Shown here one piece after another: positions 5,857-26,135 of a DNA stretch of 64,000 nucleotides. A model generated the notes under the pieces. It was given only the letters and a program-made list of their open reading frames with translations. It was not told the origin of the DNA and did not search any database. Each line of letters opens with the position of its first letter. Position 1 is the first letter of the stretch. Location: positions 21,038-85,037 of the forward strand of contig BJGE01000002.1 of the NCBI GenBank assembly GCA_014190275.1. The letters run 5' to 3'. The position numbers and the translations under genes are program-made. The stretch is from Actinomycetes bacterium. GTDB lineage: Bacteria; Actinomycetota; Actinomycetes; S36-B12.

Positions 5857-5947
5857 GACCAGCCTGCTCCTTTGCTGCTATTGCCTTTGCGGCTTACCGG
5901 GGCGCCGAGCCCCGGGGCGAGGTTACCCGCCAGTAACCCAATAATGC

Positions 5948-5959: not shown

Positions 5960-6029
5960 ACTTACGCAAGTGCCCGCCGCATTCGCCCCACCGGTGTCGC
6001 GGGCCCTGCTCATTCGCCACAATGGGGGG

Positions 6030-12526: not shown

Positions 12527-13102
12527 GTGTTGCTTTCCGATCGGGATATCAAGTCTGAGATAGCCGCCGCGCGCGTGGCCATCGAGCCCTTTGACCCGGG
12601 GATGATTCAGCCATCCAGTATCGACGTGCGCCTTGATCGCCTCTTCCGGGTTTTTGAGAATCATCGCTACCCGCATATTGATCCCAGTATCGAGCAGCCC
12701 GAGCTAACCAGATTGATTGAGCCCGAAGGTGACGACCCGTTCATTCTGCATCCGGGCGAATTTGTCTTGGGCTCCACCTATGAGGTTGTGACATTGCCTG
12801 ACGACATTGCCGGGCGGCTCGAAGGTAAGTCATCGCTGGGCCGACTGGGTCTGCTGACCCATTCTACGGCCGGCTTTATTGACCCAGGGTTCTCCGGCCA
12901 TGTCACCCTTGAACTTTCCAATGTCGCCACCTTGCCGATCATGTTGTATCCCGGCATGAAGATCGGCCAGCTGTGCTTGTTCCGACTCTCTAGTCCGGCG
13001 GAGCATCCATATGGTTCGGAAAAGTACGGCTCGCGGTATCAAGGCCAACGCGGGCCGACAGCTAGTCGGTCATTTGCGAACTTCCACCGCACTGACGTTT
13101 AG
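12527..13102 (+). CDS. dcd: dCTP deaminase
   Basis: The translation runs from a GTG start as MLLSDRDI...SSIDVRLD...GFIDPGFSG...LE, which is canonical Dcd. Confidence 0.9.
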
Positions 13103-13173
13103 CGACTAGCCGTCCACAGCCTGCCCTTATGGGCTGGCGAACCGGTGCGGGTGCACCAATTGTGGTGGAGTGA

Positions 13174-13299
13174 CGTGGACGATCTGAGCTACGAATTCGT
13201 GGGCGACTTTCGGGCGTTGGGCAGGAAGCTCTCTTGCGGGTCTTCGTGCATTTTCATGGGAGTCGGCTCCGAAGCTTTCTAGCTGAAGTTGAGGACGGC
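13174..13299 (+). pseudogene. remnant of a HigB/Gp49-type toxin gene, in frame with the downstream antitoxin
   Basis: My own translation of this frame gives RGRSELRIRGRLSGVGQEALLRVFVHFHGSRLRSFLAEVEDG. This resembles the ELRI...YRVFYxFxGxR core of Gp49/HigB toxins. The N-terminal part is missing because a stop lies at 13171. Confidence 0.35.
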
Positions 13300-13593
13300 A
13301 TGTCACCTGCTGAGCTACTTGATCACCGCGCGCGCGCGAAAGCTCTGGGCCTGTGTGCCGAATTGGCCCATGCGCGAAGGGCACGCCACCTGACTCAGGC
13401 GGCCCTGACTCGAATTTCCGGGGTCACCCAGTGCGAAATAAGTCGAATTGAAAGCGGATTAACCTCACCCACCACCGCGACACTAACCCGGCTATTAGTT
13501 GCATTGGATGTCGACTTGCGCTTAGTGCCGCATGAGGATCTCGTCGAGACGTCAGACAAAGCGGATTTCGCAGCCCGGGTTAAGGCTGGATAG
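13300..13593 (+). CDS. XRE-family helix-turn-helix protein (HigA-like antitoxin or regulator)
   Basis: It contains the HTH_3 signature LTQAALTRISGVTQCEISRIESG. The ATG at 13300 was chosen, but the ORF stays open upstream through the toxin remnant. Confidence 0.7.
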   Translation: MSPAELLDHRARAKALGLCAELAHARRARHLTQAALTRISGVTQCEISRIESGLTSPTTATLTRLLVALDVDLRLVPHEDLVETSDKADFAARVKAG

Positions 13594-13599
13594 CTGCTG

Positions 13600-15840
13600 C
13601 TAGCCCTTACTTGCTGAAAGCAGGAGTGAGGCAACATCGACAACCTCAACCCCGGCAGCGCCACCTTCTTGCTGGCGGGTGGTAACCGCATCGTTGAGCA
13701 TCACCGAGCAGAACGGGCAGGCGACGGCGATCTTCGCGGCGCCGGTCGCGATGGCCTCATCACCGCGATTCATGTTTACCTTGGTGCCAATCTTTTCTTC
13801 CATCCACATGCGGGCACCACCGGCGCCACAGCAGAACGACTTATCGCCATGGCGTTCCATCTCGACTCTGTCGACACCGGTGGCATCAATTAGGTCGCGC
13901 GGTGGCACATATACCTTGTTATGACGACCCAGATAGCACGGATCGTGGTAGGTGACTTTCTCTTCGATCTTGCTGACGGGTGTCAAGCGGCCGGCCTTGA
14001 CTAGGTCATTGAGCAACTGGGTGTGATGCACTACCTCGTAGTCGCCACCAAGTTGCGGATACTCACGTTTGAGCGTGTTCAGGCAGTGGGGGCAGGTGAC
14101 CACGATCTTCTTCGCCTTGATCTCGTTCAAAACTTCAACATTTTGCATACCCTGCATTTGGAACAAGAATTCATTACCTGCACGGCGTGCTGGATCACCG
14201 GTGCAGGTCTCGCCTTCACCGAGCACCATGAAATTCACACCAGCAATATGCATTAGTTCAGCAACCGCCTTGGTGGTGCGCTTGGCCCGATCTTCGAAGG
14301 CACCCGCGCAGCCAACCCAAAATAGGTAGTCGACGTCCTCGGGGATGACGTCCTCACCGTTGCTCCCGAAGACATTAACCTCGAAGTCAACCTCGGTGAT
14401 CCAGCCGTTTCGATCAGCGGCATTCATGCCCCACGGGTTACCCTTGGCCTCAATGTTCTTGAACATGCCATTGAGCTCGCTGGGGAATTCGCTTGCGATC
14501 ATGACCTGATTGCGACGCATGTCGGCGATATGGTCAATATGTTCGATATCGACCGGGCACTGATTCACGCAGGCGCCACACATCGTGCAACTCCACAGCG
14601 CAGCTTCGTCAATTATTGGCAGGTCAAGGCCGGTGGTGCGGTGGCCGTCGAAGGTGTAGCCGTCATCACCGGAGTGCTCGCTGCCTTCGCGCGAGCCAAT
14701 AAACGGCCGTTGCACTTCACCTTGGACAACAGGTGACACATAAGCGAGGGCTTCGGGAAGCAAGTCACCGGGCTCGGCCACCTTGTCTTGGTACTTACTA
14801 AATAGGCGGCCGGCCTCGAGATACGGGGCGGATGCGAAGAGGTTCTCGCGCAGATCCATGATGAGGAGTTTGGGGCTGAGCGGCTTACCGGTGTTCCAGG
14901 CCGGACACTGCGACTGGCAGCGGCCACATTCGGTGCAAGCCATGAAGTCGATGTAGTTCTTCCAGGTGAAGTCAGCGATATGGCCTTTGCCAAATAGTGC
15001 ATCATCGGGTGGATCCTCGAAGTTGACCGGGGCGCCCTGGTAGTAGATGGGTAGCAGCGGGCCGAGGGCATCGGGGCGACGCGAGGTGTAGACATTTACC
15101 GGCGCGGTAGCGATGTGAAGGTGCTTTGAGTGTAGAACGATCAATAAGAAGACGAGCACGACGCCGATCTGTAGCCAGATGCCGACTGTCTCGACGATTA
15201 CTAAGGTTTCCTCGCTAAGCCCCGACATCGAAGATCCAACCCAGTCGGAGAAGAAGGCGCCGCTTTCAAATGGGAGATTGCCGAGTGCCGATTGCGCACC
15301 TCGGTAGAGGAAAAGCGTCCAGACCACATTGAAGATCATGAACAAAATCAGCCAAGCGCCCTTGGTATGGCTGCCGAAGAACCGCGAGGCGCGACCTTCC
15401 TTGGCTGGGTTATTGGTCAGGCGAATAATCGCAAATAGACCGATGCCGACGAGAACTAAAACCCCGAATAGATCTTCTAGGAAACCAATGATCGCCCAAC
15501 GTCCGACAACGGGAATTCCAAAATCCGCGATGAAGAGGGCGCCGTAGGCTTCCAAAATAGTCAGGCCAAGGACTAAGAACCCCCAGAACGCAAAGACGTG
15601 CGCGATACCGGGTACCGCCCACTTAAGTAATTTGCGCTGGCCGAGCACCTCGGTGGCCTCGGCCTCCACCCGGCGCGGCGCGTTCTTGGTGCGGCCAACG
15701 GCGGGTCTGCCGGTGCCAACAAGTTTGAAGAGGAACAACCCCCGCTTCGCAGCGAGCCCGAGGAGAATGACCGTGAGGAGCACACCGATCACAGCGCGAA
15801 GAAGCAAAGCACCTCCATGCAAGGAACAACCCGTCAGCAA
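13600..15840 (-). CDS. membrane-anchored (Fe-S)-binding reductase with two 4Fe-4S motifs and two CCG domains (HdrD/GlpC-like, Rv0338c-like)
   Basis: The N-terminal ~250 aa are hydrophobic. Two ferredoxin motifs follow (CTECGRCQSQCP and CTMCGACVNQCP), then cysteine-rich CCG-type blocks (VGCAGAF, CPHCLNT, DPCYLGRHN, FCCGAGG, CPFCSVM). The TTG start is uncertain. Confidence 0.8.
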   Translation of the reverse strand: MLTGCSLHGGALLLRAVIGVLLTVILLGLAAKRGLFLFKLVGTGRPAVGRTKNAPRRVEAEATEVLGQRKLLKWAVPGIAHVFAFWGFLVLGLTILEAYGALFIADFGIPVVGRWAIIGFLEDLFGVLVLVGIGLFAIIRLTNNPAKEGRASRFFGSHTKGAWLILFMIFNVVWTLFLYRGAQSALGNLPFESGAFFSDWVGSSMSGLSEETLVIVETVGIWLQIGVVLVFLLIVLHSKHLHIATAPVNVYTSRRPDALGPLLPIYYQGAPVNFEDPPDDALFGKGHIADFTWKNYIDFMACTECGRCQSQCPAWNTGKPLSPKLLIMDLRENLFASAPYLEAGRLFSKYQDKVAEPGDLLPEALAYVSPVVQGEVQRPFIGSREGSEHSGDDGYTFDGHRTTGLDLPIIDEAALWSCTMCGACVNQCPVDIEHIDHIADMRRNQVMIASEFPSELNGMFKNIEAKGNPWGMNAADRNGWITEVDFEVNVFGSNGEDVIPEDVDYLFWVGCAGAFEDRAKRTTKAVAELMHIAGVNFMVLGEGETCTGDPARRAGNEFLFQMQGMQNVEVLNEIKAKKIVVTCPHCLNTLKREYPQLGGDYEVVHHTQLLNDLVKAGRLTPVSKIEEKVTYHDPCYLGRHNKVYVPPRDLIDATGVDRVEMERHGDKSFCCGAGGARMWMEEKIGTKVNMNRGDEAIATGAAKIAVACPFCSVMLNDAVTTRQQEGGAAGVEVVDVASLLLSASKG

Positions 15841-15867
15841 CCTGTGACAGTACCAAGCGTAGTGGAG

Positions 15868-18800
15868 TTAGTTCGCCATCGCAGTAGGCAGTTGCCCAAG
15901 TGCGACCAATGCCACATCCTGGAAGTCCTCGGGATGGTCCTTCGCGTAGGAGGTCAGATCCTGAATCATTTGCGGGGCCCAGAACATCTTGAGGTGCGTG
16001 GCTACGGCCTCGATCGCCGCCAATTGGTGGAGGTGAGTGTTGTTCGAGGTGATTTCATTTACCATCCGGACCAAGGTGGCGATGGCATCCTCATGGACTT
16101 CAACGCGCAGTTCCTCCAGACCGAGGTCTTCGGCTGATGCCAACCCACCGGCCTGGAGGGTGGGTCGTACCTCGACCGCGGTGACCTTGTATTCAGGGCA
16201 GTTGGTCGCCCAGTCCGAGTACTCGGTGGTCACGACATTGGCGCCACTTACGGGAAAGTGGAATGTCGTGTAAACCACGCCGGGGGGCACGCGCTCGGAG
16301 ATGCGCGCGTGCATCTTGGTCTTGCCAACGCGGCTGGCTAGCTCAACCCAAGAGCCATCTGTGATTCCACGCAGTTGTGCATCTGACTCATGAATATCGA
16401 GAAAATCCTCAGATTGCCAGATGACATTTGCGGTGCGCCTTGTTTGCGCTCCCACGTTGTACTGGCTGACGGCGCGACCGGTGGTGAGGAGCAGCGGGTA
16501 GCGCCGGGTAGAACGCTCAGGAGTCGGTACGTAGGGGGTTTCGACAAAGCGGCCTTCGCCACGGGTGAACTCACCAACGTGCATTGTCGGCGTGCCTTCG
16601 GGGTGCTCGGTGTTGCATGGCCATTGGATACTGCCCAGTTCATCGAGCTTCGCGAAGGAGACACCGGCGAAGGTGGGGGTAACCTGTGCGATTTCGTCCA
16701 TGATTTGCGAGGCATCGTCGTAATGCATTGGGTAGCCGAGGGCTTTTGCCAGATCGCAGGTCACCTCCCATTCGGCTTTACCTGTTCGACTGGCCATGAT
16801 TGGGCGCACCCGATTGATGCGGCGCTCGGCGTTAGTGAAAGTGCCGTCCTTCTCTAAGAATGAAGTTCCGGGTAAGAAGACATGTGCGTAGGCCGAAGTT
16901 TCGTTTAGAAACAGATCCTGCACGATAACTAAGTCCATTGAGGCTAGAGCATTTGTCACATGCGAGGTATTTGGATCAGACTGCGCAATGTCTTCCCCTT
17001 GAATGTAGATACCGCGGAAACTTCCGACCACGGCCGCATCGAGCATATTAGGTATGCGCAGCCCCGGAACCGATTGCAACTCGCGGCCCCAAAGTGCCTC
17101 GAATTGCTGCCGCACCGCATCATCTGATACATGCCGGTAGCCGGAGTACTCATGGGGGAACGAGCCCATGTCGCAGGAGCCCTGCACATTGTTCTGCCCA
17201 CGCAGTGGGTTAACTCCGACACCCTCACGACCGATACTTCCGGTGAGCATGGCCAAGTTGGCCATGCCGATGACCATGGTTGAGCCCTGGCTGTGCTCGG
17301 TGACTCCGAGGCCGTAATAAATCGCGGAGTTTGGTCCGGCGGCGTACAGACGAGCCGCACCGCGGAGAGTATCCGCCGGCACCCCGGATTCGGTGGCGAC
17401 TGCCTCCGGGCTGTTGCTAGGAAGTTTAATGAAGTCCTCCCATGCCTGGAAAGCTTCGTCATCACAGCGCGCCGCTATGAAGGCTTTGTCATGGAGTCCT
17501 TCGGTCAAGATGACGTGGGCCAGCGCATTTATTACCGCAACGTTGGTGCCCGGCTGCAACTGCAGGTGGTAGTCGGCCTTGATATGCGGTGAACGCACCA
17601 AGTCGGTAGTCCGTGGATCAACCACTATCAATTTGGCCCCGGCTCGAAGTCGTCGCTTCATTCGCGACCCAAAGACCGGATGGGCATCGATTGGGTTGGC
17701 TCCGATCACCAAGATTACGTCAGATTTTTCAACGGACTTGAAATCTTGGGTGCCGGCCGACGTGCCGAAGGTCTTTTTGAGTCCGTAGCCGGTTGGTGAA
17801 TGGCAGACCCGGGCGCAGGTATCAACATTGTTATTGCCGAATCCAGCCCGCACGAGCTTTTGAACAACATAAACATCTTCGTTGGTGCACCTAGATGAGG
17901 TGATGCCACCGATGCTGTCGATACCGTACTGCGCCTGGATTTCTTTGAGTTTATTCGCTGCGTACCCGATCGCCTCTTCCCACGGAACTTCGCGCCACGG
18001 ATCGGTAATGGCTTCCCTTATCATCGGTTTTAGAACCCGATCTGGGTGCGTGGTGTAGCCGAAAGCGAAGCGCCCCTTGACGCAGGAGTGACCTTCATTG
18101 GCGCCACCATCTTTATAGGGCACCATGCGCACAAGTTCGTCACCGCGCATTTCAGCTTTAAATGTGCACCCCACCCCGCAATAGGCGCAAGTCGTCAGCA
18201 CGGTACGGGTCGGGGTGCCGAGTTCGATGACCGCCTTTTCCTGCAGGGTTGACGTCGGGCAGGCCTGCACGCAGGCGCCGCAGGAAACACACTCACTCTC
18301 CAGGAAATTCAGGCCACCAGGGCTCACTTTGGAATTGAATCCGCGCCCCTCAATAGTTAACGCGAAAGTGCCTTGGACTTCACTGCACGCCCGCACGCAG
18401 CGGCTGCAGACAATGCACTTGCTCTCGTCGAAGGAGAAATACGGATTACTGTCGTCGGTTGGTGCATCAAGGTGGTTCTCACCGGCGTAGCCGTAGCGCA
18501 CATCCCGCAACCCCACCACACCCGCCATGTCCTGGAGCTCGCAGTCACCGTTAGCCGGGCAGGTCAGGCAATCAAGTGGATGGTCGGAGATGTAGAGCTC
18601 CATCACCCCGCGTCTGAGTCGATCGAGTTTGGGGGAGGTGGTGTGCACCACCATGCCGGACTCACATGGGGTGGTGCAGGAGGCCGGAGTCCCCTTCTTG
18701 CCATCGATTTCAACCAAGCACAATCGGCACGATCCAAATGGCTCGAGTGAGTCGGTTGCGCAAAGTTTCGGTATCGGTATGCCGGCTTCACTTGCGGCAC

Positions 18801-18915
18801 GCAGGACAGACGTGCCGACTGCCACCGATACATCATGGCCATCGACGCTGACGGTGACTGTTTCGCTCCCCATTTTGGCCGGGGTGCCGTAATCATGCTC
18901 GCGTAAAATTGTCAT
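15868..18915 (-). CDS. fdsA: NAD-dependent formate dehydrogenase alpha subunit (molybdopterin, Cys type) with C-terminal FdsD-like extension
   Basis: The 1015-aa translation has N-terminal 2Fe-2S and 4Fe-4S motifs, the MopB active-site block DTCARVCHSPTGYG and the C-terminal CPEYKVTAVEV. An extra ~85 aa follow (LVRMVNEITSNN...HLKMFWAPQM) that resemble FdsD. Confidence 0.9.
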   Translation of the reverse strand: MTILREHDYGTPAKMGSETVTVSVDGHDVSVAVGTSVLRAASEAGIPIPKLCATDSLEPFGSCRLCLVEIDGKKGTPASCTTPCESGMVVHTTSPKLDRLRRGVMELYISDHPLDCLTCPANGDCELQDMAGVVGLRDVRYGYAGENHLDAPTDDSNPYFSFDESKCIVCSRCVRACSEVQGTFALTIEGRGFNSKVSPGGLNFLESECVSCGACVQACPTSTLQEKAVIELGTPTRTVLTTCAYCGVGCTFKAEMRGDELVRMVPYKDGGANEGHSCVKGRFAFGYTTHPDRVLKPMIREAITDPWREVPWEEAIGYAANKLKEIQAQYGIDSIGGITSSRCTNEDVYVVQKLVRAGFGNNNVDTCARVCHSPTGYGLKKTFGTSAGTQDFKSVEKSDVILVIGANPIDAHPVFGSRMKRRLRAGAKLIVVDPRTTDLVRSPHIKADYHLQLQPGTNVAVINALAHVILTEGLHDKAFIAARCDDEAFQAWEDFIKLPSNSPEAVATESGVPADTLRGAARLYAAGPNSAIYYGLGVTEHSQGSTMVIGMANLAMLTGSIGREGVGVNPLRGQNNVQGSCDMGSFPHEYSGYRHVSDDAVRQQFEALWGRELQSVPGLRIPNMLDAAVVGSFRGIYIQGEDIAQSDPNTSHVTNALASMDLVIVQDLFLNETSAYAHVFLPGTSFLEKDGTFTNAERRINRVRPIMASRTGKAEWEVTCDLAKALGYPMHYDDASQIMDEIAQVTPTFAGVSFAKLDELGSIQWPCNTEHPEGTPTMHVGEFTRGEGRFVETPYVPTPERSTRRYPLLLTTGRAVSQYNVGAQTRRTANVIWQSEDFLDIHESDAQLRGITDGSWVELASRVGKTKMHARISERVPPGVVYTTFHFPVSGANVVTTEYSDWATNCPEYKVTAVEVRPTLQAGGLASAEDLGLEELRVEVHEDAIATLVRMVNEITSNNTHLHQLAAIEAVATHLKMFWAPQMIQDLTSYAKDHPEDFQDVALVALGQLPTAMAN

Positions 18916-20444
18916 CGCTGGAAGTCCTCCGGGAATTGGCGGAGTGCACTCAGTACCGGCATCGGGGTCAAGCCGCCCATGGCACAGAGTGAACCATCAA
19001 TCATCAGGTCGCACAAGTCGTTGAGTAATTCCAGGTTCTCGTTTCGATCGACGTTATTGATGATCTTGTCGATGACTTCGGTCCCGCGCACCGAGCCCAC
19101 GCGACACGGCGTGCACTTGCCGCAGGACTCCTTCGAGCAGAATTCCATGGCAAAGCGCGCCTGTTGGGCCATATCGACCGAGTCATCGAAGACAACAATC
19201 CCACCGTGCCCCAGCATGCCGCCGGCGGCGAGCAGCGCTTCGTAATCCATCGCCACATCCAGTGCACTGGCCGGGAAATAGGCACCCAGGGGCCCGCCCA
19301 CCTGAACGGATCGAACGGGTCGACCGGAGCGGGTACCACCCCCATACGTCTCAACCAACTCCTTGAGGCTGATCCCGAAGGCGCGCTCCACGATCCCACC
19401 CCGAGCGATATTGCCGGCAAGTTGGAATACCTGGGTACCGCGGGAGCGGTCAGCGCCAAGGGCTTGATAGGCGGCGGCGCCCTGGGCCAAGATCATCGGC
19501 ACGGTACCCAAGGTCAAGACATTGTTGACGATGGTGGGCTCACCGAAAAGCCCGTGCAGGGCCGGAATCGGCGGCTTGGCGCGCACCATTCCGCGTTTGC
19601 CCTCAAGGCTTTCGAGCATCGCGGTTTCCTCACCGCAGACGTACGAGCCGGCGCCGACCCGCACGGAGATGTCGAAAGCCTTACCGCTACCGAGTACATC
19701 GTCACCGAGTAGGCCGCATCCCCTGGCGATCAGCAAGGCGGCTCGCATGGTGGCAATTGCATCCGGGTACTCGGACCTGATGTAGATCAAGCCCTTGGTT
19801 GCCCCGCCCGCGATGCCGGCGATGGCCATGCCTTCGATGAGGGTGAATGGATCACCTTCCATCAGCATTCGATCGGCGAAGGTGCCGCTGTCGCCTTCAT
19901 CGGCATTGCAGCAAACATACTTTTGCCCCGACTCGGCCTCCAGCACCGTGCGCCATTTAATGCCAGCGGGGAACCCTGCGCCACCTCGGCCACGCAACCC
20001 GGAGGCTAGTACTTCCTCGACTGTTTTCGAAGGTCCAAGTGCAATGGCTGTTCGCAAGCCGGTGAGGCCACCGTGGGCTTCGTAGTCGTTGATGTCTAGT
20101 GGGTCGATAACACCAACGCGCGCGAAGGTCACTCGCTGCTGATCGGCTAGCCACGGGATATCCTCAACAATGCCAACGGAAAAACCGTTATCAGCACCGG
20201 TTAAGAAATCCGAATCGAAAAGTGCAGCAACATCGGCGGCGGTCACTGGGCCATAACCGACCCGGCCTTCAACCGTCTCGACTTCAACCAGTGGTTCTAA
20301 CCAGAGCAGTCCCCGTGAACCGTTGCGCACCAACCGAATATCAATATCTCGCCGCCTCGCCTCGGCGGTAATCGCAAGGGCAACGGCAGTCGCACCGACC
20401 GAAGTCGCGGCGCTGTCGATAGGCACATAGACGGTGTTTGTCAT
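18912..20444 (-). CDS. fdsB: formate dehydrogenase beta subunit (NuoF-like, FMN/NAD-binding, 4Fe-4S)
   Basis: It has a GLRGRGGAGFPAGIKW FMN/NAD site and a C-terminal ESCGKCTPCR cluster motif. Start and stop overlap both neighbours by 4 nt. Confidence 0.85.
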   Translation of the reverse strand: MTNTVYVPIDSAATSVGATAVALAITAEARRRDIDIRLVRNGSRGLLWLEPLVEVETVEGRVGYGPVTAADVAALFDSDFLTGADNGFSVGIVEDIPWLADQQRVTFARVGVIDPLDINDYEAHGGLTGLRTAIALGPSKTVEEVLASGLRGRGGAGFPAGIKWRTVLEAESGQKYVCCNADEGDSGTFADRMLMEGDPFTLIEGMAIAGIAGGATKGLIYIRSEYPDAIATMRAALLIARGCGLLGDDVLGSGKAFDISVRVGAGSYVCGEETAMLESLEGKRGMVRAKPPIPALHGLFGEPTIVNNVLTLGTVPMILAQGAAAYQALGADRSRGTQVFQLAGNIARGGIVERAFGISLKELVETYGGGTRSGRPVRSVQVGGPLGAYFPASALDVAMDYEALLAAGGMLGHGGIVVFDDSVDMAQQARFAMEFCSKESCGKCTPCRVGSVRGTEVIDKIINNVDRNENLELLNDLCDLMIDGSLCAMGGLTPMPVLSALRQFPEDFQR

Positions 20445-20929
20445 AGTGCCACCCGCGCATCGGAAAGGGCAGCCTCAAGAGTATTCGGTGTAAGCCGCCC
20501 AACTAGCCGCTCATTGATGAGCGCGGCTGGGCCGAGTGCGCAGTTACCGAGGCAGAAGACCTCGACCACATCCACTTGGTCGTCGGTGGATCTGCCGCCT
20601 ACCGGGGCGAGGTTCGCACTCACGTGGACAATCAACTCACGTGCTCCCGCGGCTTGGCAGGCCTCAGCAACGCAGATCGCGACAATTATTGGGGCGGAGG
20701 CCGTAGTGCGCAGCTCGTGGTAGTAGGTGAGCACCCCGTGGACGTCAGCCACCGAAACATTAAGTGCCACCGCGATTTGGGCCACCGCCTCCTTGGGCAC
20801 GTAGCCGAAACCCTGCTGCACCGCCTGCAGTGCGGGGAGGATAAGGCGTTCGTCGTAGGGGAGGAGCTTAAGCAACTCTTGGCCGTCCGCCTGCGTCCAC
20901 GGTCTTACTCGGTGCGCCACTGATGCCAT
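20441..20929 (-). CDS. fdsG: formate dehydrogenase gamma subunit (NuoE-like 2Fe-2S)
   Basis: The 162-aa translation has NuoE-type cysteines (ICVAEACQAAG...FCLGNCALGPA). It is the first gene of the minus-strand operon. Confidence 0.8.
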   Translation of the reverse strand: MASVAHRVRPWTQADGQELLKLLPYDERLILPALQAVQQGFGYVPKEAVAQIAVALNVSVADVHGVLTYYHELRTTASAPIIVAICVAEACQAAGARELIVHVSANLAPVGGRSTDDQVDVVEVFCLGNCALGPAALINERLVGRLTPNTLEAALSDARVAL

Positions 20930-21061
20930 CCTTTCGCCCGGAGCAGGTGCCGCCTTGCTACCTGATGATAGGGGATCAAAAAATTAGTATAACCAATTTC
21001 ACCATTCGGGTTGACGTGGGGGGTTTCCGAGAGGACAGTGCCGAACAAGGCGAATCGACGC

Positions 21062-21097
21062 GCACGCTGCCCGCTAATAGGGGGGTTAGCAGCGTGC
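21062..21097 (+). promoter_or_regulatory. GC-rich hairpin in the amiS 5' leader
   Basis: GCACGCTGC (21062-21070) pairs perfectly with GCAGCGTGC (21089-21097). The hairpin lies 5 nt upstream of the GAAAGGTGG ribosome-binding site. No U-tract follows it. Confidence 0.3.
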
Positions 21098-21115
21098 ATA
21101 TGAAAGGTGGCGCAT

Positions 21116-21715
21116 ATGGGCGCAGTTGGATTGCTGTATGTCGGTGCAGTTCTCTTCCTAAATGGGACGATGTTGCTCGGCTGGATTGACAGTAAGTCTG
21201 CAGCACCGCTTAATATTTTTGTGGGAATTCTGCAGGTGATTACACCGACGTATTTAATCATAAATGCAAATGGTGACATGACGACTATTCTGGGAGCCTC
21301 TGGACTTTATTTGTTCGGGTTCACATATTTGTACGTGGCTTTTAATCTCTTTTTCAACCTGGATGGCACTGGTTTGGGAATGTTTTCACTGTACGTCGCT
21401 ATCGCGGCGGTGTTTTTCTCCTTAGTGTCCTTCAATGCGGGTGACCCAGTTTTCGGGGTCATCTGGCTGTACTGGGCATTCCTGTGGTTGCTGTTCTATC
21501 TATTGCTCGCACTTAAGCGAGACAACTTAGGAAGATACACGGGTGGAGTGGCTGTCGTTCAGGGTTTTGTGACGGGCTTTGTCCCGTCATTCTTGCTCTT
21601 GACCGGACGCATTGCGGACATTGAGTCTGGGACGCTAGCCATAGTCCTGGCCGTGGTTGGAGTTGTTCTCTTTGCTGGTCTCTACGTGAAGTTGAAGGCA
21701 CCTGTAGCTGCTTGA
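21116..21715 (+). CDS. amiS: AmiS/UreI family amide/urea channel
   Basis: This is a six-TM protein beginning MGAVGLLYVGAVLFLNGTMLLG, which is characteristic of AmiS/UreI. The ATG at 21116 is preferred over the GTG at 21107 because of RBS spacing. Confidence 0.8.
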   Translation: MGAVGLLYVGAVLFLNGTMLLGWIDSKSAAPLNIFVGILQVITPTYLIINANGDMTTILGASGLYLFGFTYLYVAFNLFFNLDGTGLGMFSLYVAIAAVFFSLVSFNAGDPVFGVIWLYWAFLWLLFYLLLALKRDNLGRYTGGVAVVQGFVTGFVPSFLLLTGRIADIESGTLAIVLAVVGVVLFAGLYVKLKAPVAA

Positions 21716-21767
21716 CCAGTTTGACAAATGTTTATTGGTAATTCCCCATCAATTATTTGGAGTGCTA

Positions 21768-23096
21768 ATGCCAAAGAATTTATTTCCGCTAGATAACAAG
21801 AAGTCATTCACAAATCAAAAGCATGTCGGCCACAACCGCTGGCATCCAGATATCCCGCACAATGTCACGGTGAAACCGGGTGACAGTTTTCACGCCGATT
21901 GTCGTGAGTGGTTCGACGGTGCCATCCGAAACAATGATTCAGCGGACGATGTTCGTGATGCGCCACTCGCTGGCGTGCACGTACTCTCCGGCCCGTTTCG
22001 GATTGAAGGTGCCAAGCCAGGTGACCTACTCGTGGTCGACATCCTCGACGGTGGCCCCTGTGGCGACCCAGATGGTGATCGCCTCACCGAAAACCGCGAT
22101 GGCATCTCCGGCGAAGGCTGGGGCTACACCGGTGTTTTCCCACTGGAGAATGGCGGCGGCTTCCTCGTCGATCAGTTCCCCGATGCCTACAAGGCGATTT
22201 GGGATTTCAATGGTGGCAAGGCGACGTCACGCCATATCCCCGGAGTTTCGTACACCGGTATTTTCCACCCCGGACTCATGGGCACCGCCCCTTCGGCGGA
22301 GTTGCTAGCCAAGTGGACCAAGCGGGAGAAGGCGCTTATCGCGACCAACCCGACCCGGGTACCACCCCTTGCGCTGCCACCGAACCCTGATAGTGCGATC
22401 TTGGGCAAGCTCAAGGGTGCGGATTACGATCGGGTGGCCGGTGAGGCTGCACGTACTGCACCACCACGCGAAAACGGTGGCAACCAGGACATCAAGAACT
22501 TCACCAAGGGCACCCGGGTCTTCTACCCGGTGTTTGTTGATGGAGCGAATTTGTCCTTCGGTGACCTCCACTTCTCACAGGGCGACGGTGAAATCACTTT
22601 CTGCGGCGCCATTGAGATGGGTGGGTTCTTGGACCTCGGTGTTGACGTCATCAAGGGTGGTATGGAGAAGTACGGTGTCTCCGAGAATGCCATCTTCATG
22701 CCGGGCAACACCGATCCGCAGTACAGCGAATGGCTAGCCTTCTCGGGCACTTCGGTGACACTAGATGGCGAGCAGAAGTACTTGGATTCGTTCCTGGCGT
22801 ACCAGCGGGCGAACCTGCATGCAATCGACTACCTGATGAAGTTCGGGTATACCGCTATCCAGGCCTACATGATCTTGGGTACGGCACCTGTCGAAGGTCG
22901 CCTTTCGGGCGTCGTTGACATCCCGAATGCTTGCTCGACGGTTTACATCCCGCGGGCAATCTTCGACATGGACGTCGCGCCGAGTGCAAGTGGTCCGACC
23001 CAGGTCAAGGGCAGCGTTGCATCAGGTGGCATGGATGTGCCGATGTCACGTTGGGCAGATCACGTCGAAGGCAAGTGGGCTCCGTACCCCTGGTAA
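21768..23096 (+). CDS. fmdA: formamidase (acetamidase/formamidase family)
   Basis: From the ATG at 21768 the translation MPKNLFPLDNKKSFTNQKHVGHNRWHPDIP...NGGNQDIKN...DLHFSQGDGEITFCGAIEM matches FmdA-type enzymes. A GGAG lies 5 nt upstream. Confidence 0.85.
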   Translation: MPKNLFPLDNKKSFTNQKHVGHNRWHPDIPHNVTVKPGDSFHADCREWFDGAIRNNDSADDVRDAPLAGVHVLSGPFRIEGAKPGDLLVVDILDGGPCGDPDGDRLTENRDGISGEGWGYTGVFPLENGGGFLVDQFPDAYKAIWDFNGGKATSRHIPGVSYTGIFHPGLMGTAPSAELLAKWTKREKALIATNPTRVPPLALPPNPDSAILGKLKGADYDRVAGEAARTAPPRENGGNQDIKNFTKGTRVFYPVFVDGANLSFGDLHFSQGDGEITFCGAIEMGGFLDLGVDVIKGGMEKYGVSENAIFMPGNTDPQYSEWLAFSGTSVTLDGEQKYLDSFLAYQRANLHAIDYLMKFGYTAIQAYMILGTAPVEGRLSGVVDIPNACSTVYIPRAIFDMDVAPSASGPTQVKGSVASGGMDVPMSRWADHVEGKWAPYPW

Positions 23097-23105
23097 CCCG
23101 CATTA

Positions 23106-23149
23106 ATGAAAAAGTGCGGGCTCCCGAAAAGGGGGCCCGCACTTTTCAT
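23106..23149. terminator. bidirectional rho-independent terminator between convergent fmdA and fmdB-like genes
   Basis: ATGAAAAAGTGCGGGC and GCCCGCACTTTTCAT form a stem of at least 12 bp, extendable to about 20 bp around a GAAAA loop. An A-run lies on the left and a T-run on the right. Confidence 0.6.
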
Positions 23150-23151
23150 GT

Positions 23152-23442
23152 TTAGGGTCTGGGAAGTTTCTGCAGGAGTGGATTATTAGGGGCCATCGGC
23201 TGGGTCTTGCGCCGACCGTCATTGGGTATTGAAGTAACTACTTCTGGACGGTCACTGGTCGCCTTGGTCGAGTCGATCAGTTTCATCCGCTTTTGATCAA
23301 CTGCAGAGACAAGTGGCATCGAGAAAACTCGCTGTGCTGGCTGCTCGCAGACCGGGCATTCTATGCTCTCCGTGGCCTCGCCCATGGGCCGGTTCACGTC
23401 GGTAGGGCCGTCAATAACACAGTTGTACTGGTACGTAACCAT
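23152..23442 (-). CDS. FmdB-family zinc-ribbon protein (putative regulator), degenerate first knuckle
   Basis: MVTYQYNCVIDG...IECPVCEQPAQRVF follows the FmdB pattern (xTYxYxC...CPxC). The second Cys of the first CxxC pair is absent. Confidence 0.6.
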   Translation of the reverse strand: MVTYQYNCVIDGPTDVNRPMGEATESIECPVCEQPAQRVFSMPLVSAVDQKRMKLIDSTKATSDRPEVVTSIPNDGRRKTQPMAPNNPLLQKLPRP

Positions 23443-23568
23443 TGGAATTACTCCTTATCGCCTCGTGAAATCTCTGGGATCAAGAAATCACCTAGGACGA
23501 TTGTTGGGGCAATAGCCATTCCCGTCAATCGATTTGCCCTACTTGGTCGCGGTGACGCCAAATTGCTC

Positions 23569-24114
23569 CTAGGGCCGGACGGATTTAACGGCTGCGCCAA
23601 CCGCTGCGAAATCGCGCATCGATTGGTCCAACAAGAGCTTGGCCTGCAGGCCTTCAAAGAGTGAAAGCTTGGACCGCAGCAAGGGCTGCATCTCGGCTAG
23701 GGCAGCGGCGGTTGACGCACTTGCGGTGTCAAAGGCGCGGCTGGCCGCATCGGCGGCCTGCTGGACGCGGGTGTCAATGGCTCCAGAGCGTGCCAGGGCG
23801 CGGGTGGTGCGGGTCTTGGCTTCTAGTTGAGCCAAGGTCAGATCGGCCTTGGCTATTAAGGCCTCGGCGCGCTCATTTTGCTCGGCGGTGAGCCGGTCAC
23901 CGTAGTTGGTGAGGAACCCACTTAGGTCCTGGCGGGACTGGGCTCGAAAGCCGCTAACTGCCCGGTGGGCGGCATTGGCCGAAGCCACGCCAGCAGCACT
24001 CGTAGCCGAAGAAATGGCGGCCACCGGTGCTAGCGGAACAGCGGTTGCAGGTGCCACCGCGGCCAGGAGGAGGGCGCCGAGGAGTGCTGCAAAGCTGAGC
24101 TGGAGTCGGCGCAT
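23569..24114 (-). CDS. secreted alpha-helical protein of unknown function
   Basis: From the ATG at 24114 it has the signal peptide MRRLQLSFAALLGALLLAAVAPATA, followed by Ala/Gln/Arg-rich helical sequence. I recognise no family. Confidence 0.45.
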   Translation of the reverse strand: MRRLQLSFAALLGALLLAAVAPATAVPLAPVAAISSATSAAGVASANAAHRAVSGFRAQSRQDLSGFLTNYGDRLTAEQNERAEALIAKADLTLAQLEAKTRTTRALARSGAIDTRVQQAADAASRAFDTASASTAAALAEMQPLLRSKLSLFEGLQAKLLLDQSMRDFAAVGAAVKSVRP

Positions 24115-24181
24115 GTGGCTTGGACGCGCCGGTGGGGTCGAATGTTCCGGGAATAAGCCCGCTGAGCCAGTGGTTATCAAC

Positions 24182-24212
24182 TATGAGTTGACCTGGCTCA
24201 AAGTATGTGAGT
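24182..24212. promoter_or_regulatory. HAIR-like (HspR operator) inverted repeats upstream of dnaK
   Basis: TGAGT (24184), then 8 nt, CTCAA (24197), then 6 nt, TGAGT (24208). Compare the HAIR consensus CTTGAGT-N7-ACTCAAG. The match is imperfect. A TTGACC -35-like box lies at 24188. Confidence 0.35.
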
Positions 24213-24299
24213 ACCAATTTGCATATTAAGTGGGTTGGGTGGACACTTAGGGCAGACCCCCGGATCAACCGGTAGCAACTAAAAAGGAGTACGGACATC

Positions 24300-26135
24300 A
24301 TGGCCCGAGCAGTAGGTATCGACCTTGGTACGACCAACTCGGTCGTATCGGTCCTCGAAGGCGGCGAACCCGTCGTTATTGCAAACGCGGAAGGTTCCCG
24401 GACGACCCCGTCCGTGGTGGCTTTTGCCAAGAATGGTGAAGTGCTGGTCGGCGAGGTCGCCAAGCGCCAGGCCGTCACCAATATTGATCGCACGGTGCGC
24501 TCGGTCAAGCGACACATGGGCACCAAATGGACCGTCGACATCGACGGCAAGAACTACACCCCCCAGGAGATCAGCGCCCGCACCCTGATGAAACTCAAGC
24601 GCGACGCGGAGGCCTATCTCGGCGAGAACGTCACCGACGCGGTTATCACCGTGCCTGCCTACTTCTCCGACGCCGAGCGCCAAGCCACCAAAGAAGCTGG
24701 CGAGATCGCCGGCCTCAATGTGCTTCGGATTATCAACGAGCCGACAGCGGCGGCGCTGGCTTATGGCCTCGACAAGGGTGATAAAGAGCAAACCATCTTG
24801 GTTTTCGACCTCGGCGGCGGCACCTTCGACGTCTCACTCCTTGAAATCGGCGACGGTGTTGTCGAGGTTAAAGCAACAAGTGGCGATAACCATCTAGGCG
24901 GCGATGACTGGGACAACAAAGTTGTCGACTGGATGGTCACCGAGTTCAAGAATGCACACGGTGTCGATCTTTCGAAAGACAAGATGGCGATGCAGCGGCT
25001 GCGCGAGGCAGCAGAGAAAGCCAAGATCGAGCTGTCGAGTTCGATGCAGACCTCCATCAACCTGCCATACATCACGGCGAGCGCTGATGGCCCTCTACAC
25101 CTTGACGAGACTTTGAGCCGGGCGCAGTTTGAGTCGATGACCCAAGACCTACTCGATCGCACCAAGGCGCCATTCCAGGCGGTCTTGAAGGATGCGGGAA
25201 TCGCACTCGACAAGATCGACCAGGTCGTGCTCGTCGGCGGATCAACTCGCATGCCAGCCGTTACTGAATTGGTCAAGAAGGAAGCCGGCAAGGAGCCGAA
25301 CAAGGGTGTTAACCCAGATGAGGTCGTCGCCGTTGGCGCGGCCCTGCAGGCGGGTGTGCTGAAGGGTGAAGTCAAGGACGTTCTGCTGCTCGATGTGACC
25401 CCGCTATCGCTGGGCATCGAGACCAAGGGCGGTGTCATGACCAGACTAATCGAACGCAACACCACCATCCCGACGAAGCGCTCTGAAACCTTCACCACGG
25501 CGGACGACAACCAGCCTTCGGTACTGATTCAGGTCTACCAGGGTGAGCGTGAAATGGCCGCGTACAACAAGCGACTTGGCACCTTCGAGCTGACTGGCTT
25601 ACCGCCGGCACCGCGGGGCGTCCCGCAGGTTGAAGTCACCTTCGATATCGATGCGAACGGGATTGTCCATGTGTCGGCTAAAGACATGGCGACCGGTAAA
25701 GAGCAGTCCATGACAATCTCGGGAGGCTCGGCGCTGGGCAAGGACGAAATCGATCGCATGATGCGGGAGGCCGAGCAGCACGCTGATGAAGACAAGCAGC
25801 GTCGCGATGAGGTCGAGGTCCGAAACACCGCCGAAGGGCTGGTCTATCAAACCGAGAAGTTCCTTGCGGATAACGCCGACAAGGTACCGGCGGATGCCAA
25901 GGCGAATGTTGAGGGCCCACTCGATGAGCTGAAGAAGGCCATTGAAGCCAATGACATCCCAGGAATGCGCGCGGCAACCGACAAGGTTGCCCAAACCAGC
26001 CAGACCCTGGGCGCAGCGATGTACGCGACAGCGCAAGCAGCCGGTGGCTCGGAAGGAGCAGCGGAGGCCGAGGCCGAGATGGCCGAGGACGATGTTGTCG
26101 ATGCCGAAATCATTGACGAGGAAGAAGCCAAGTGA
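24300..26135 (+). CDS. dnaK: molecular chaperone DnaK (Hsp70)
   Basis: The 611-aa translation is canonical: [17 protein letters not shown], the EEVD-like acidic tail. Confidence 0.97.

What the first reader, a model, noticed from the sequence alone, without database searches (positions are those of the whole stretch)
13600..23442. Formamide-to-CO2 module: amiS-fmdA(-fmdB) back-to-back with an NAD-type formate dehydrogenase operon
Seen in the sequence: two gene sets diverge from a 177-nt intergenic region. On one side is fdsG-fdsB-fdsA, with 4-nt start/stop overlaps between genes. On the other is an AmiS/UreI-type amide channel followed by an FmdA-type formamidase. An FmdB-like zinc-ribbon gene is convergent behind a shared hairpin terminator. 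Established knowledge: formamidase yields formate plus ammonia, and FdsABG-type enzymes oxidise formate to CO2 with NAD+. Inference: the block is a self-contained route that takes both nitrogen and reducing equivalents from formamide (or a related short amide). I do not know this pairing as a described operon architecture. The flanking genes (the Rv0338c-like Fe-S gene and the dnaK operon) are conserved actinobacterial backbone, so the block looks like an accessory insertion.
Basis: partly seen in the sequence, partly recalled or inferred. Interest (0 to 1): 0.65.

Follow-up and report, generated by a model that had tools for sequence, protein, structure and literature searches.

The report
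Formamidase genes joined to formate dehydrogenase
A 7.6-kb, six-gene block in an uncultured freshwater actinobacterium joins an amide channel and a formamidase to an NAD-linked formate dehydrogenase, and the same pairing recurs in several gene orders elsewhere, so it probably turns formamide into ammonia, CO2 and NADH using known enzymes in an undescribed cluster layout.

Summary
fdsG-fdsB-fdsA (4-nt overlaps; FdsD fused to the end of FdsA) diverges from amiS-fmdA. A small FmdB-like zinc-ribbon gene converges on fmdA behind a strong two-way hairpin.

The window comes from a Candidatus Nanopelagicales MAG lineage. The functional unit is window 15858-23497, not 13600-23442. In a related MAG this exact 7.65-kb stretch lies elsewhere, while the Fe-S gene and dnaK sit about 0.9 kb apart, an empty site.

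The pairing recurs:
- It is found in 8 of 80 species-level genomes that carry FmdA.
- It is found in 16 of the 17 metagenome contigs of the window's FmdA clade that are long enough to judge.
- It occurs in at least four layouts, including a one-strand fmdB-amiS-fmdA-fdsG-fdsB-fdsA-fdsD row in a distant clade.
- One genome pairs fmdA with a different, selenocysteine-type formate dehydrogenase.

Chance adjacency is therefore very unlikely. Coupling of formamide hydrolysis to formate oxidation is the best reading, but it is inferred, not shown.

The block is not fully self-contained: no fdhD/fdsC or molybdenum-cofactor genes occur in the 64 kb. No paper in the searched library describes this cluster. 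Every enzyme is known and the chemistry is expected, so this is a new variant of a known kind, of moderate interest.

The parts
15858..23497 (.). The whole relocatable six-gene block (fdsA to the fmdB-like gene)
   Evidence: In blastn, the window matches L007 (Ca. Nanopelagicales EUL_266) only over 15858-23497, aligned to L007 4088-11731 (78.7% identity over 7652 nt). The window's flanks match a different contig of the same MAG (L095).
15868..18915 (-). fdsA: catalytic Mo-bisMGD subunit of an FdsABG-type formate dehydrogenase (1015 aa)
   Evidence: TIGR01591 scores 899.5 bits against a cut-off of 666. It scores 1460 bits against PDB 9wxb_B and 1442 bits against R. capsulatus FdsA 6tg9_A. The active-site motifs ARVCHSPTGYG and NPLRGQNNVQG are both kept.
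15901..16074 (-). FdsD-like domain fused to the C-terminus of FdsA (residues 948-1005)
   Evidence: PF11390 FdsD, E 2.9e-12. It is 34% identical to the free-standing 61-aa FdsD of L090. There is no sequence match in the PDB.
18912..20444 (-). fdsB: NuoF-like FMN/NAD(H) subunit
   Evidence: Complex1_51K plus NADH_4Fe-4S. It scores 735.7 bits against C. necator FdsB 6vw7_B. It overlaps fdsA by 4 nt.
20441..20920 (-). fdsG: NuoE-like 2Fe-2S subunit (a longer ORF starts at 20929)
   Evidence: PF01257, 111 bits. NF004638 'formate dehydrogenase subunit gamma' scores 145 bits, below its cut-off of 198. The best PDB match is C. necator FdsG 6vw7_A. It overlaps fdsB by 4 nt.
20921..21115 (.). Divergent intergenic region holding both promoters
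   Evidence: A TTGAC box at 21023-21027 and both gene-proximal leaders are conserved among the window, L007 and L008. The centre of the region is not conserved. It contains no GlnR-type box.
21050..21115 (+). Conserved amiS leader with a hairpin at 21062-21097, just 5' of the ribosome-binding site
   Evidence: The leader is nearly invariant in four relatives whose AmiS proteins are only 80-89% identical to the window's. It has 16 predicted pairs, one of which changes G-C to U-G. Its folding energy is not unusual (z -1.3) and it has no Rfam match.
21116..21715 (+). amiS: AmiS/UreI-family channel for small uncharged amides (199 aa)
   Evidence: PF02293 scores 199.7 bits and covers model positions 1-165 of 166.
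21768..23096 (+). fmdA: FmdA-type formamidase (442 aa)
   Evidence: NF045496 'formamidase' equivalog scores 663 bits against a cut-off of 500. It scores 483 bits against the solved formamidase 2wkn, relative to which it carries an insertion of about 18 residues at positions 97-114.
23110..23146 (.). Two-way terminator-like hairpin shared by fmdA and the fmdB-like gene
   Evidence: It folds at -38.8 kcal/mol on the + strand and -31.9 kcal/mol on the - strand (z -7.3 and -6.1). None of 200 shuffles folds as well, and a U-run follows the stem on both strands.
23152..23442 (-). fmdB-like small zinc-ribbon protein (96 aa)
   Evidence: TIGR02605 scores 27.0 bits (cut-off 31.3) and PF09723 scores 27.5 bits (cut-off 34.4), so both are below threshold. 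A homologue lies next to fmdA in 74 of the 96 loci held when it was counted. Conserved motifs are YxYxC...CPxC, IDST-K-x-T-x3-P-x-VVT and a C-terminal KLPRP.

Best explanation
Window 15858-23497 is a discrete, relocatable catabolic module for formamide.

Proposed mechanism, step by step:
1. AmiS lets the small uncharged amide into the cell.
2. FmdA hydrolyses it to ammonia, which is assimilated, and formate.
3. The soluble FdsA(D)-FdsB-FdsG molybdoenzyme oxidises the formate to CO2 and passes the electrons through its Fe-S chain and FMN to NAD+.
4. The cell therefore gains nitrogen and one NADH per formamide and does not accumulate inhibitory formate.

Regulation and dependencies:
- The two transcription units start back to back in a 195-nt region, which would allow joint control.
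- The FmdB-like zinc-ribbon protein is a constant partner of FmdA and probably has a regulatory or accessory role.
- Maturation of the enzyme (FdhD/FdsC and Moco synthesis) depends on genes elsewhere in the genome.

Origin: the layout most likely arose when an amiS-fmdA-fmdB module was inserted into the divergent fdhD/fdsG promoter region of a resident fds locus. In this lineage the piece without fdhD later moved to the Fe-S gene/dnaK site.

What is shown and what is inferred:
- Shown: gene identities, active-site motifs, block boundaries, the empty site, and recurrence in several layouts.
- Inferred: the substrate, the direction of flux, co-regulation, the role of FmdB, and the order of evolutionary events.
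For: Identity of the parts:
- Curated models are passed for FdsA (899 against a cut-off of 666) and FmdA (663 against 500); AmiS scores 199.7 bits.
- FdsA keeps the Cys-His and Arg active-site motifs of the solved R. capsulatus-type enzymes.
- FdsB and FdsG match C. necator FdsB and FdsG best.
- FmdA scores 483 bits against formamidase 2wkn.

A discrete unit:
- Homology to L007 covers exactly 15858-23497.
- In the same MAG the flanking Fe-S gene and dnaK are about 0.9 kb apart.

Recurrence (the window's own lineage also appears as L087, L097 and L098):
- Divergent layout, as in the window: L007, L008, L012-L014, L018, L103, L106-L114 and L129.
- fdsA-fdsB-fdsG facing amiS-fmdA-fmdB-fdhD: L101 and L102.
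- fmdA, then fmdB on the opposite strand, then fdhD-fdsG-fdsB-fdsA: L104.
- One-strand (fmdB-)amiS-fmdA-fdsG-fdsB-fdsA-fdsD, with 4-nt overlaps: L016, L020, L121, L160 and L166. This group is distant in both trees.
- L019 pairs a urea-transporter-family gene, fmdA and fmdB with fdhD and a selenocysteine-type formate dehydrogenase (NF041513, 1485 bits against a cut-off of 1400).
- In the window's FmdA clade, 16 of the 17 metagenome contigs that can be judged are linked.

Insertion into a resident locus:
- L105 has fmdA/fmdB exactly where its close relative L090 has the fdsG side of fdhD (fdhD 85% and LysE 87% nt identity).
- FmdA-linked FdsAs are scattered among unlinked ones, while the FmdA clade is one group.

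Physiology from the literature:
- Engineered C. glutamicum expressing a formamidase accumulated inhibitory formate. This was fixed by a formate dehydrogenase, and the NAD-dependent enzyme worked best (PMC10781810).
- In M. smegmatis a formamidase and the adjacent FmdB-family gene are both induced by nitrogen limitation (PMC4617892).
Against: - Most FmdA loci have no formate dehydrogenase within 10 kb: 71 of the 80 genome loci, most of which have about 10 kb of sequence on each side. Close members of the same FmdA clade can also lack it (L010, L099). The coupling is therefore optional.
- All the closest FdsA relatives outside the window's own group carry the fds operon without fmdA (L089-L094). 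The dehydrogenase clearly serves other formate sources too.
- No fdhD/fdsC or Moco gene lies in the 64-kb window.
- No regulator with a recognised DNA-binding domain lies in the block, there is no GlnR box, and no expression data were available.
- The FmdA_AmdA family also contains acetamidases, so substrate preference rests on similarity alone.
- The trees are neighbour-joining trees without support values.
Confidence: 0.75

Rival explanations
1. The neighbours are not metabolic partners. The amiS-fmdA-fmdB module simply landed in a permissive spot, the divergent fdhD/fdsG promoter region or a variable island rich in toxin-antitoxin genes. It has since travelled with the fds operon by hitch-hiking. 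The dehydrogenase serves formate from other sources.
For: - The fds operon occurs without fmdA in all six sampled FdsA-relative loci outside the window's own group. Those loci lie near other formate- or C1-related genes: FTHFS, ETF and a DMGDH-like gene in L090, and CoA-transferase plus a TPP enzyme in L094.
- The insertion sites carry toxin-antitoxin genes.
- Most of the divergent-type loci belong to one FmdA clade, so they could descend from few events.
Against: - The pairing exists in at least four gene orders, including a tightly packed one-strand row in a clade distant in both trees.
- One genome pairs fmdA with a different class of formate dehydrogenase.
- Linked FdsAs are interspersed with unlinked ones, which points to repeated joining.
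- By inference, chance adjacency within 10 kb in a 3-8 Mb genome is below about 1% per locus.
Confidence: 0.12
2. The coupling is real but formamide is not the main substrate. The amidase might act chiefly on another short amide such as acetamide or propionamide. Alternatively the module may chiefly clear internally produced formamide or formate, for example from cyanide or histidine breakdown, rather than scavenge formamide from the water.
For: - PF03069 covers both acetamidases and formamidases.
- The window's FmdA clade carries an insertion of about 18 residues that is absent from the solved formamidase.
- AmiS/UreI channels pass several small amides and urea (established knowledge of the family).
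- In L019 a urea-transporter-family gene takes the place of AmiS.
Against: - The curated formamidase equivalog is passed with margin (663 bits against a cut-off of 500).
- Only formamide hydrolysis yields formate, the substrate of the linked enzyme, so an acetamidase would not explain the pairing.
- No hut, nitrile hydratase-type or cyanide-related gene was found beside the block. A search with hutH, hutU and hutI found nothing in the window.
- The presence of a channel gene argues for uptake from outside.
Confidence: 0.1
3. The Fds enzyme runs in reverse here, reducing CO2 with NADH, or serves redox balancing. Its link to formamidase would then concern formate supply to C1 assimilation rather than formate removal.
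For: - FdsABG-type enzymes are reversible in vitro (abstracts of PMC7171172 and PMC11891784, listed).
- A relative's fds locus lies near formate-tetrahydrofolate ligase (L090).
Against: - No FTHFS gene lies in the window.
- Pairing a formate-producing hydrolase with a formate-producing reductase makes no metabolic sense.
- In one subclade an NDH-2 gene, which consumes NADH, sits beside the cluster.
Confidence: 0.03

Closest known systems
Methylophilus methylotrophus formamide cluster fmdCABDEF (Wyborn 1996 and Mills 1998, as summarised in PMC10781810)
   Same: It has an FmdA-type formamidase with an adjacent small FmdB protein, described as a putative positive regulator. It is a dedicated uptake-plus-hydrolysis cluster for short amides, induced by formamide and repressed by ammonia.
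   Different: Uptake there uses an outer-membrane porin (FmdC) and a binding-protein ABC transporter (FmdDEF). Here it uses a single AmiS/UreI channel. No formate dehydrogenase belongs to that cluster. The host is a Gram-negative methylotroph.
Soluble NAD+-dependent Mo formate dehydrogenase operon fdsGBACD of Cupriavidus necator and Rhodobacter capsulatus (PDB 6tg9/6tga, 6vw7)
   Same: The gene order fdsG-fdsB-fdsA and all the cofactor-binding domains are the same, and the Cys-His/Arg active site is kept. FdsA scores 1442 bits against 6tg9_A and FdsB scores 736 bits against 6vw7_B.
   Different: FdsD is fused to FdsA rather than being a separate gene. No fdsC/fdhD lies in or near the operon. 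The position that fdhD occupies in relatives (L090) is taken here by amiS-fmdA.
Engineered formamide utilisation in Corynebacterium glutamicum: formamidase plus formate dehydrogenase (Schwardmann 2023, as reviewed in PMC10781810)
   Same: It uses the same two-step logic: formamidase releases ammonia and formate, and a formate dehydrogenase removes the inhibitory formate. The NAD-dependent enzyme worked best.
   Different: That pairing was built artificially from unrelated genes (a heterologous formamidase). The pairing here is a natural, conserved and mobile gene cluster.
Pseudomonas aeruginosa amiEBCRS amidase operon and Helicobacter pylori amiF/ureI
   Same: An AmiS/UreI-family channel is encoded alongside a short-chain amidase.
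   Different: AmiE and AmiF belong to the nitrilase superfamily, not to the FmdA_AmdA family. AmiC/AmiR regulators are absent here, and no formate dehydrogenase is involved there. The first and third statements rest on established knowledge. The absence of AmiC/AmiR rests.

Membership tests
FdsABG(D)-type NAD+-dependent molybdenum formate dehydrogenase | An alpha subunit with NuoG-like Fe-S domains plus a Mo-bisMGD domain that carries the catalytic Cys(Sec)-His pair and the conserved Arg | tested here: met
   TIGR01591 scores 899 bits against a cut-off of 666. ARVCHSPTGYG and NPLRGQNNVQG align with 9wxb_B.
FdsABG(D)-type NAD+-dependent molybdenum formate dehydrogenase | A NuoF-like beta subunit (FMN, NAD(H), 4Fe-4S) and a NuoE-like gamma subunit (2Fe-2S), encoded in the order G-B-A | tested here: met
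   Pfam domains are present. The best solved matches are C. necator FdsB (735.7 bits) and FdsG (94.9 bits). The curated gamma model NF004638 scores only 145 bits against a cut-off of 198.
FdsABG(D)-type NAD+-dependent molybdenum formate dehydrogenase | An FdsD subunit | tested here: met
   It is present as a fused C-terminal domain of FdsA (PF11390, E 2.9e-12). It is a separate gene in L016 and L090.
FdsABG(D)-type NAD+-dependent molybdenum formate dehydrogenase | An FdsC/FdhD sulfurtransferase chaperone encoded with the operon | tested here: not met
   tblastn with the L090 FdhD finds nothing in the 64-kb window. fdhD is present in the cluster variants L101, L102, L104 and L105.
FdsABG(D)-type NAD+-dependent molybdenum formate dehydrogenase | Formate:NAD+ oxidoreductase activity | not testable with these tools
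   This needs an enzyme assay.
FmdA-type formamidase (FmdA_AmdA family, EC 3.5.1.49) | A full-length match to the curated formamidase equivalog and to a solved formamidase | tested here: met
   NF045496 scores 663 bits against a cut-off of 500. PF03069 scores 555.8 bits. The match to 2wkn scores 483 bits over residues 8-427.
FmdA-type formamidase (FmdA_AmdA family, EC 3.5.1.49) | A preference for formamide over other amides | not testable with these tools
   This needs kinetics. The clade-specific insertion at residues 97-114 is uncharacterised.
AmiS/UreI channel family | A full-length match to PF02293 | tested here: met
   The score is 199.7 bits against a cut-off of 25, covering model positions 1-165 of 166.
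FmdB family zinc-ribbon protein | A match to TIGR02605 or PF09723 above the curated cut-off (CxxC...CxxC ribbon) | tested here: inconclusive
   The scores are 27.0 bits (cut-off 31.3) and 27.5 bits (cut-off 34.4). The first zinc knuckle keeps only one Cys in most actinobacterial members.
FmdB family zinc-ribbon protein | Conserved adjacency to fmdA | tested here: met
   A homologue lies next to fmdA in 74 of the 96 loci held at the time, on either side and on either strand.
M. methylotrophus-type fmdCABDEF formamide cluster | A porin (FmdC) and a Urt-like ABC transporter (FmdDEF) encoded with fmdAB | tested here: not met
   The block holds only six genes, none with porin or ABC-transporter domains.

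The most novel reading that the evidence does not exclude
Formamide may be an overlooked dual nitrogen and energy substrate for abundant freshwater Actinomycetota. On this reading a mobile amiS-fmdA-fmdB cassette has repeatedly been wired into resident formate dehydrogenase loci, because hydrolysis without immediate formate oxidation is costly. The module may also carry its own undescribed control system, either the highly conserved amiS leader RNA or the FmdB-like zinc-ribbon protein with its KLPRP tail. That system would sense formamide or formate and co-ordinate both divergent promoters.
Probability: 0.15. Interest if true: 0.6.

Novelty: new variant of a known kind. Interest (0 to 1): 0.42.

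Why it matters
If the module works as inferred, a widespread group of lake bacteria can take both nitrogen and reducing power from formamide, a compound rarely considered in freshwater nitrogen budgets.

It would also be a natural version of a design that engineers reached independently: a formamidase paired with an NAD-dependent formate dehydrogenase to avoid formate poisoning. A compact, oxygen-compatible six-gene cassette, with a three-gene Fds enzyme whose FdsD is fused, could be useful for formamide-based bioprocesses.

The repeated, independent joining of the two gene sets is a clean case of selection for clustering consecutive pathway steps. It also gives a testable functional context for the poorly understood FmdB family.

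None of this overturns existing knowledge. The enzymes and the chemistry are textbook.

Tried and rejected
- Rfam scan of 13000-24500 at E<=1: only two sub-threshold chance hits, and nothing at the amiS leader.
- The amiS leader hairpin as a structured RNA: its folding energy is unremarkable (z -1.3). There is one G-C to U-G change in four close sequences. The sequence is not conserved in the loci labelled Mycobacteriaceae, which only have unrelated short hairpins at the same place. It is recorded as noticed, not claimed.
- GlnR-type box (GnnAC-n6-GnAAC, from PMC3662644): none in the intergenic region, and window-wide counts are at chance level.
- Signs of a mobile element at the block edges: no direct or inverted repeats of 9 nt or more. 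No integrase or transposase lies in the flanks of L007 or the window. GC content is unremarkable except for amiS at 48.7%.
- The Fe-S (CCG) gene as part of the unit: rejected. It stays beside dnaK in the MAG where the block lies elsewhere.
- An internal source of formamide: hutH, hutU and hutI from a relative found nothing in the window.
- Amidohydro_3 genes beside fds in L016 and L094 as a shared second formate-releasing amidase: they are only 26% identical and match no curated family, so no claim is made.
- FdsD domain against the PDB by sequence: no hit.
- The consensus terminator scan missed the 23110-23146 hairpin, so it was checked by folding instead.
- The L019 formate dehydrogenase looked frameshifted or stopped. 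The in-frame stop is followed by His in the motif QARI*HSS, the usual selenocysteine position. An upstream frame change probably reflects a long-read assembly error.


Full report
**What is in the window**

On the minus strand:
- fdsG (20441-20920, or 20929 for the longest ORF).
- fdsB (18912-20444).
- fdsA (15868-18915).
- The genes are joined by two 4-nt overlaps.

On the plus strand:
- amiS (21116-21715).
- fmdA (21768-23096; 442 aa from an ATG with a GGAG ribosome-binding site).

A 96-aa zinc-ribbon gene (23152-23442, minus strand) converges on fmdA.

Between fmdA and that gene, the hairpin at about 23110-23146 folds at -38.8 kcal/mol on one strand and -31.9 kcal/mol on the other. It is far beyond the shuffled controls (z -7.3 and -6.1) and is followed by a U-run in both directions.

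The intergenic region is 177 nt with the longest ORFs. It is 195 nt with the starts favoured by ribosome-binding-site spacing and by gene callers on identical metagenome contigs.

**Identity of the proteins**

- FdsA passes the curated formate dehydrogenase alpha model (899 bits against a cut-off of 666).
- FdsA aligns end to end with solved FdsA chains (1460 bits to 9wxb_B, 1442 bits to R. capsulatus 6tg9_A). The catalytic Cys-His (ARVCHSPTGYG) and the Arg motif (NPLRGQNNVQG) are kept.
- FdsB and FdsG match C. necator FdsB and FdsG best.
FdsD is a separate 61-102-aa gene in relatives.
- FmdA passes the curated formamidase equivalog (663 bits against 500) and scores 483 bits against the solved formamidase 2wkn. 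It has an insertion of about 18 residues at positions 97-114.
- AmiS is a full-length PF02293 match.
- The zinc-ribbon protein falls just below both FmdB cut-offs. However, a homologue lies next to fmdA in 74 of the 96 loci held when it was counted. It has conserved motifs, including a C-terminal KLPRP.

**Source organism and limits of the unit**

Identical or near-identical contigs occur in several metagenome assemblies. The nearest named genomes are Candidatus Nanopelagicales MAGs: EUL_266, and Baikal-deep-G14 (FmdA 96-97% identical).

The decisive comparison is with EUL_266:
- At the DNA level the window matches its contig 1 only over 15858-23497 (78.7% over 7652 nt). That runs from 10 nt past the fdsA stop to 55 nt beyond the start of the fmdB-like gene.
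- There the block lies between toxin-antitoxin-type genes, with glnA 3 kb away.
- On contig 7 of the same MAG, the window's flanks are neighbours. The Fe-S (CCG) gene and dnaK are about 0.9 kb apart, with only two small genes between them.

So the six genes form a discrete unit that occupies different sites in related genomes. The 'accessory insertion' reading is therefore correct. No repeats, integrase or transposase mark the edges, so the mechanism of movement is unknown.

**Does the pairing recur?**

I fetched 80 species-level genome loci and 80 metagenome loci that encode FmdA, each with up to 10 kb of flank. I searched them with the window's proteins.

fds genes lie beside fmdA in 8 of the genome loci and 19 of the metagenome loci. 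The layouts are:
- (a) The window's divergent layout. It occurs in Nanopelagicales (L007, L008, L087, L097, L098). It also occurs in a large group of MAGs and contigs labelled Mycobacterium or Mycobacteriaceae (L012-L014, L018, L103, L106-L114, L129).
- (b) fdsA-fdsB-fdsG facing amiS-fmdA-fmdB-fdhD (L101, L102).
- (c) fmdA, a convergent fmdB, then fdhD-fdsG-fdsB-fdsA (L104).
- (d) A single-strand row, (fmdB-)amiS-fmdA-fdsG-fdsB-fdsA-fdsD, with 4-nt overlaps between the fds genes (L016, L020, L121, L160, L166).
- (e) In one Solirubrobacteraceae MAG (L019), a urea-transporter-family gene, fmdA and fmdB face fdhD plus a membrane-type formate dehydrogenase. That enzyme has an in-frame stop at the selenocysteine position (QARI*HSS) and scores 1485 bits on NF041513 against a cut-off of 1400. 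Being a single genome, case (e) could be chance.

In an FmdA tree, layouts (a) to (c) form one clade that also contains the window. In that clade, 16 of the 17 metagenome contigs long enough to judge are linked. The exception is L099, and L010 is an unlinked genome locus in the same clade. Layout (d) is a separate, distant clade nested among unlinked sequences.

In an FdsA tree the linked enzymes are not one group:
- The window's group is sister to four unlinked, FdsD-fused operons (L089, L092-L094).
- The Mycobacteriaceae-labelled group is sister to an unlinked classical locus (L090).
- L104 stands alone.
- Layout (d) branches deeply.

These are neighbour-joining trees without support values. 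Even so, the pattern fits repeated joining of an fmd module to resident fds operons.

A direct example is L105. Its fdhD and LysE genes are 85-87% identical in DNA to those of L090. Where L090 has the fdhD/fdsG intergenic region, L105 has fmdB and fmdA.

**Limits of the association**

- 71 of the 80 genome loci have no formate dehydrogenase within reach, and most of these have about 10 kb of sequence on both sides.
- Every sampled FdsA relative outside the window's own group has the operon without fmdA. These lie in other contexts, some next to other formate- or C1-related genes.
- The coupling is therefore an optional add-on, not a rule for either enzyme.

**Mechanism**

1. AmiS admits formamide.
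2. FmdA splits it into ammonia and formate.
3. The Fds enzyme oxidises formate to CO2 and makes NADH.

Only formamide hydrolysis yields the substrate of the linked enzyme, so the pairing itself argues for formamide rather than another amide.

Literature support:
- A C. glutamicum strain engineered with a formamidase accumulated inhibitory formate. It needed a formate dehydrogenase, and the NAD-dependent one performed best (PMC10781810).
- In M. smegmatis a formamidase and its adjacent FmdB-family gene are both induced by nitrogen limitation (PMC4617892).

In the Mycobacteriaceae-labelled subclade an NDH-2 gene sits next to the fmdB-like gene in seven loci. This would fit re-oxidation of the NADH, but it may simply be chromosomal backbone.

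Regulation is unresolved:
- No gene in the block has a recognised DNA-binding domain.
- There is no GlnR box.
- There is no Rfam match.
- The ~65 nt before the amiS start codon, including a hairpin at 21062-21097, are almost invariant in four relatives whose AmiS proteins differ from the window's by 11-20%. The fold is not statistically unusual, and the sequence is not shared by more distant linked loci.

**What is missing**

- No fdhD/fdsC, Moco-biosynthesis or formate-THF ligase gene lies in the 64 kb, so 'self-contained' is too strong.
- Relatives place fdhD divergently from fdsG (L090). Some linked variants keep fdhD at the far side of the fmd genes.
- This suggests that the fmd module entered the fdhD/fdsG promoter region, and that the window's lineage later moved the piece without fdhD. 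That order of events is inference.

**Comparison with known systems and novelty**

- The fds part is a member of the FdsABG(D) family. It has two departures: FdsD is fused and there is no linked chaperone.
- The fmd part shares FmdA and FmdB with the M. methylotrophus fmdCABDEF cluster. It replaces the porin and ABC transporter with an AmiS channel.
- Full-text searches found no paper that combines formamidase with any fds gene name.
- The formamide review and a 2026 survey of amidase clusters describe only transporter- or regulator-type neighbours.
- I therefore rate this a new variant of a known kind: a natural, mobile, recurrent gene-cluster coupling of two well-known enzymes.
- The chemistry is what a specialist would predict, so surprise is limited. 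The value lies in the strength of the comparative evidence, the possible ecological role of formamide in lakes, and a ready-made cassette for formamide-based bioprocesses.
- Interest is 0.42.

Noticed in passing
window 15901-16074 (-): FdsD is fused to the C-terminus of FdsA, giving a three-gene Fds enzyme. The fusion is shared with unlinked relatives (L089, L092-L094). FdsD is a separate gene in L016 and L090.
   Followed up: partly
window 21050-21115 (+); L007 9278-9343; L008 3146-3211; L087 7801-7866 (-): The amiS leader is almost invariant and has a 9-bp-plus hairpin just upstream of the ribosome-binding site. One G-C pair changes to U-G. There is no Rfam match, the fold energy is not unusual, and the sequence is not conserved in more distant linked loci.
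   Followed up: partly
window 15808-15867: The Fe-S (CCG/4Fe-4S, Rv0338c-like) gene starts 27-60 nt downstream of fdsA on the same strand, with no terminator between them. In this lineage it may therefore be read through from the fds promoter, a side effect of the insertion.
   Followed up: no
L012 3859-5334; L014 11635-13128; also L106, L107, L108, L112, L114: A type II NADH dehydrogenase gene (Pyr_redox_2 plus NDH2_C) lies directly beside the fmdB-like gene in seven linked loci labelled Mycobacteriaceae (87-99% identical to one another).
   Followed up: partly
L019 1387-11563: A Solirubrobacteraceae MAG carries fdhD, a formate dehydrogenase alpha gene with an in-frame stop at the selenocysteine position (QARI*HSS), and an NrfD-like gene. 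These face a urea-transporter-family gene, fmdA and fmdB. An upstream frame change looks like an assembly error.
   Followed up: yes
L094 6153-20081: An unlinked fds operon is flanked by a divergent Amidohydro_3 gene. A CoA-transferase III plus TPP-enzyme pair lies nearby and looks like formyl-CoA transferase with oxalyl-CoA decarboxylase, another formate-yielding route. The Amidohydro_3 gene next to fds in L016 is only 26% identical.
   Followed up: partly
L007 2735-3088 and 12543-13373; L095 7219-7964; window 9992-10414: Toxin-antitoxin-type genes (Gp49/HigB-like, PIN) sit at both sites where the block is found or missing. A PIN-domain gene also lies about 5.4 kb from the block's left edge in the window. 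This suggests variable genome regions.
   Followed up: no
window 23569-24114 (-): A 181-aa ORF between the block and dnaK has no Pfam match and a high GC content (64.8%). It is conserved in L008 (72%) and L087 but lies outside the relocated block.
   Followed up: partly
window 23152-23442 (-) and homologues in 74 loci: The FmdB-like proteins next to fmdA share a reduced first zinc knuckle (a single Cys followed by D/H-G), a mid-protein IDST-K-x-T-x3-P-x-VVT motif and a C-terminal KLPRP. None of this is captured by the current curated models.
   Followed up: partly
window 5922-5961: Two adjacent GTTAC-n6-GTAAC-type palindromes lie in the divergent region between an acyl-CoA dehydrogenase gene (4021-5856, -) and the ORF at 5970-6518 (+). 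They look like an operator for a local repressor.
   Followed up: no
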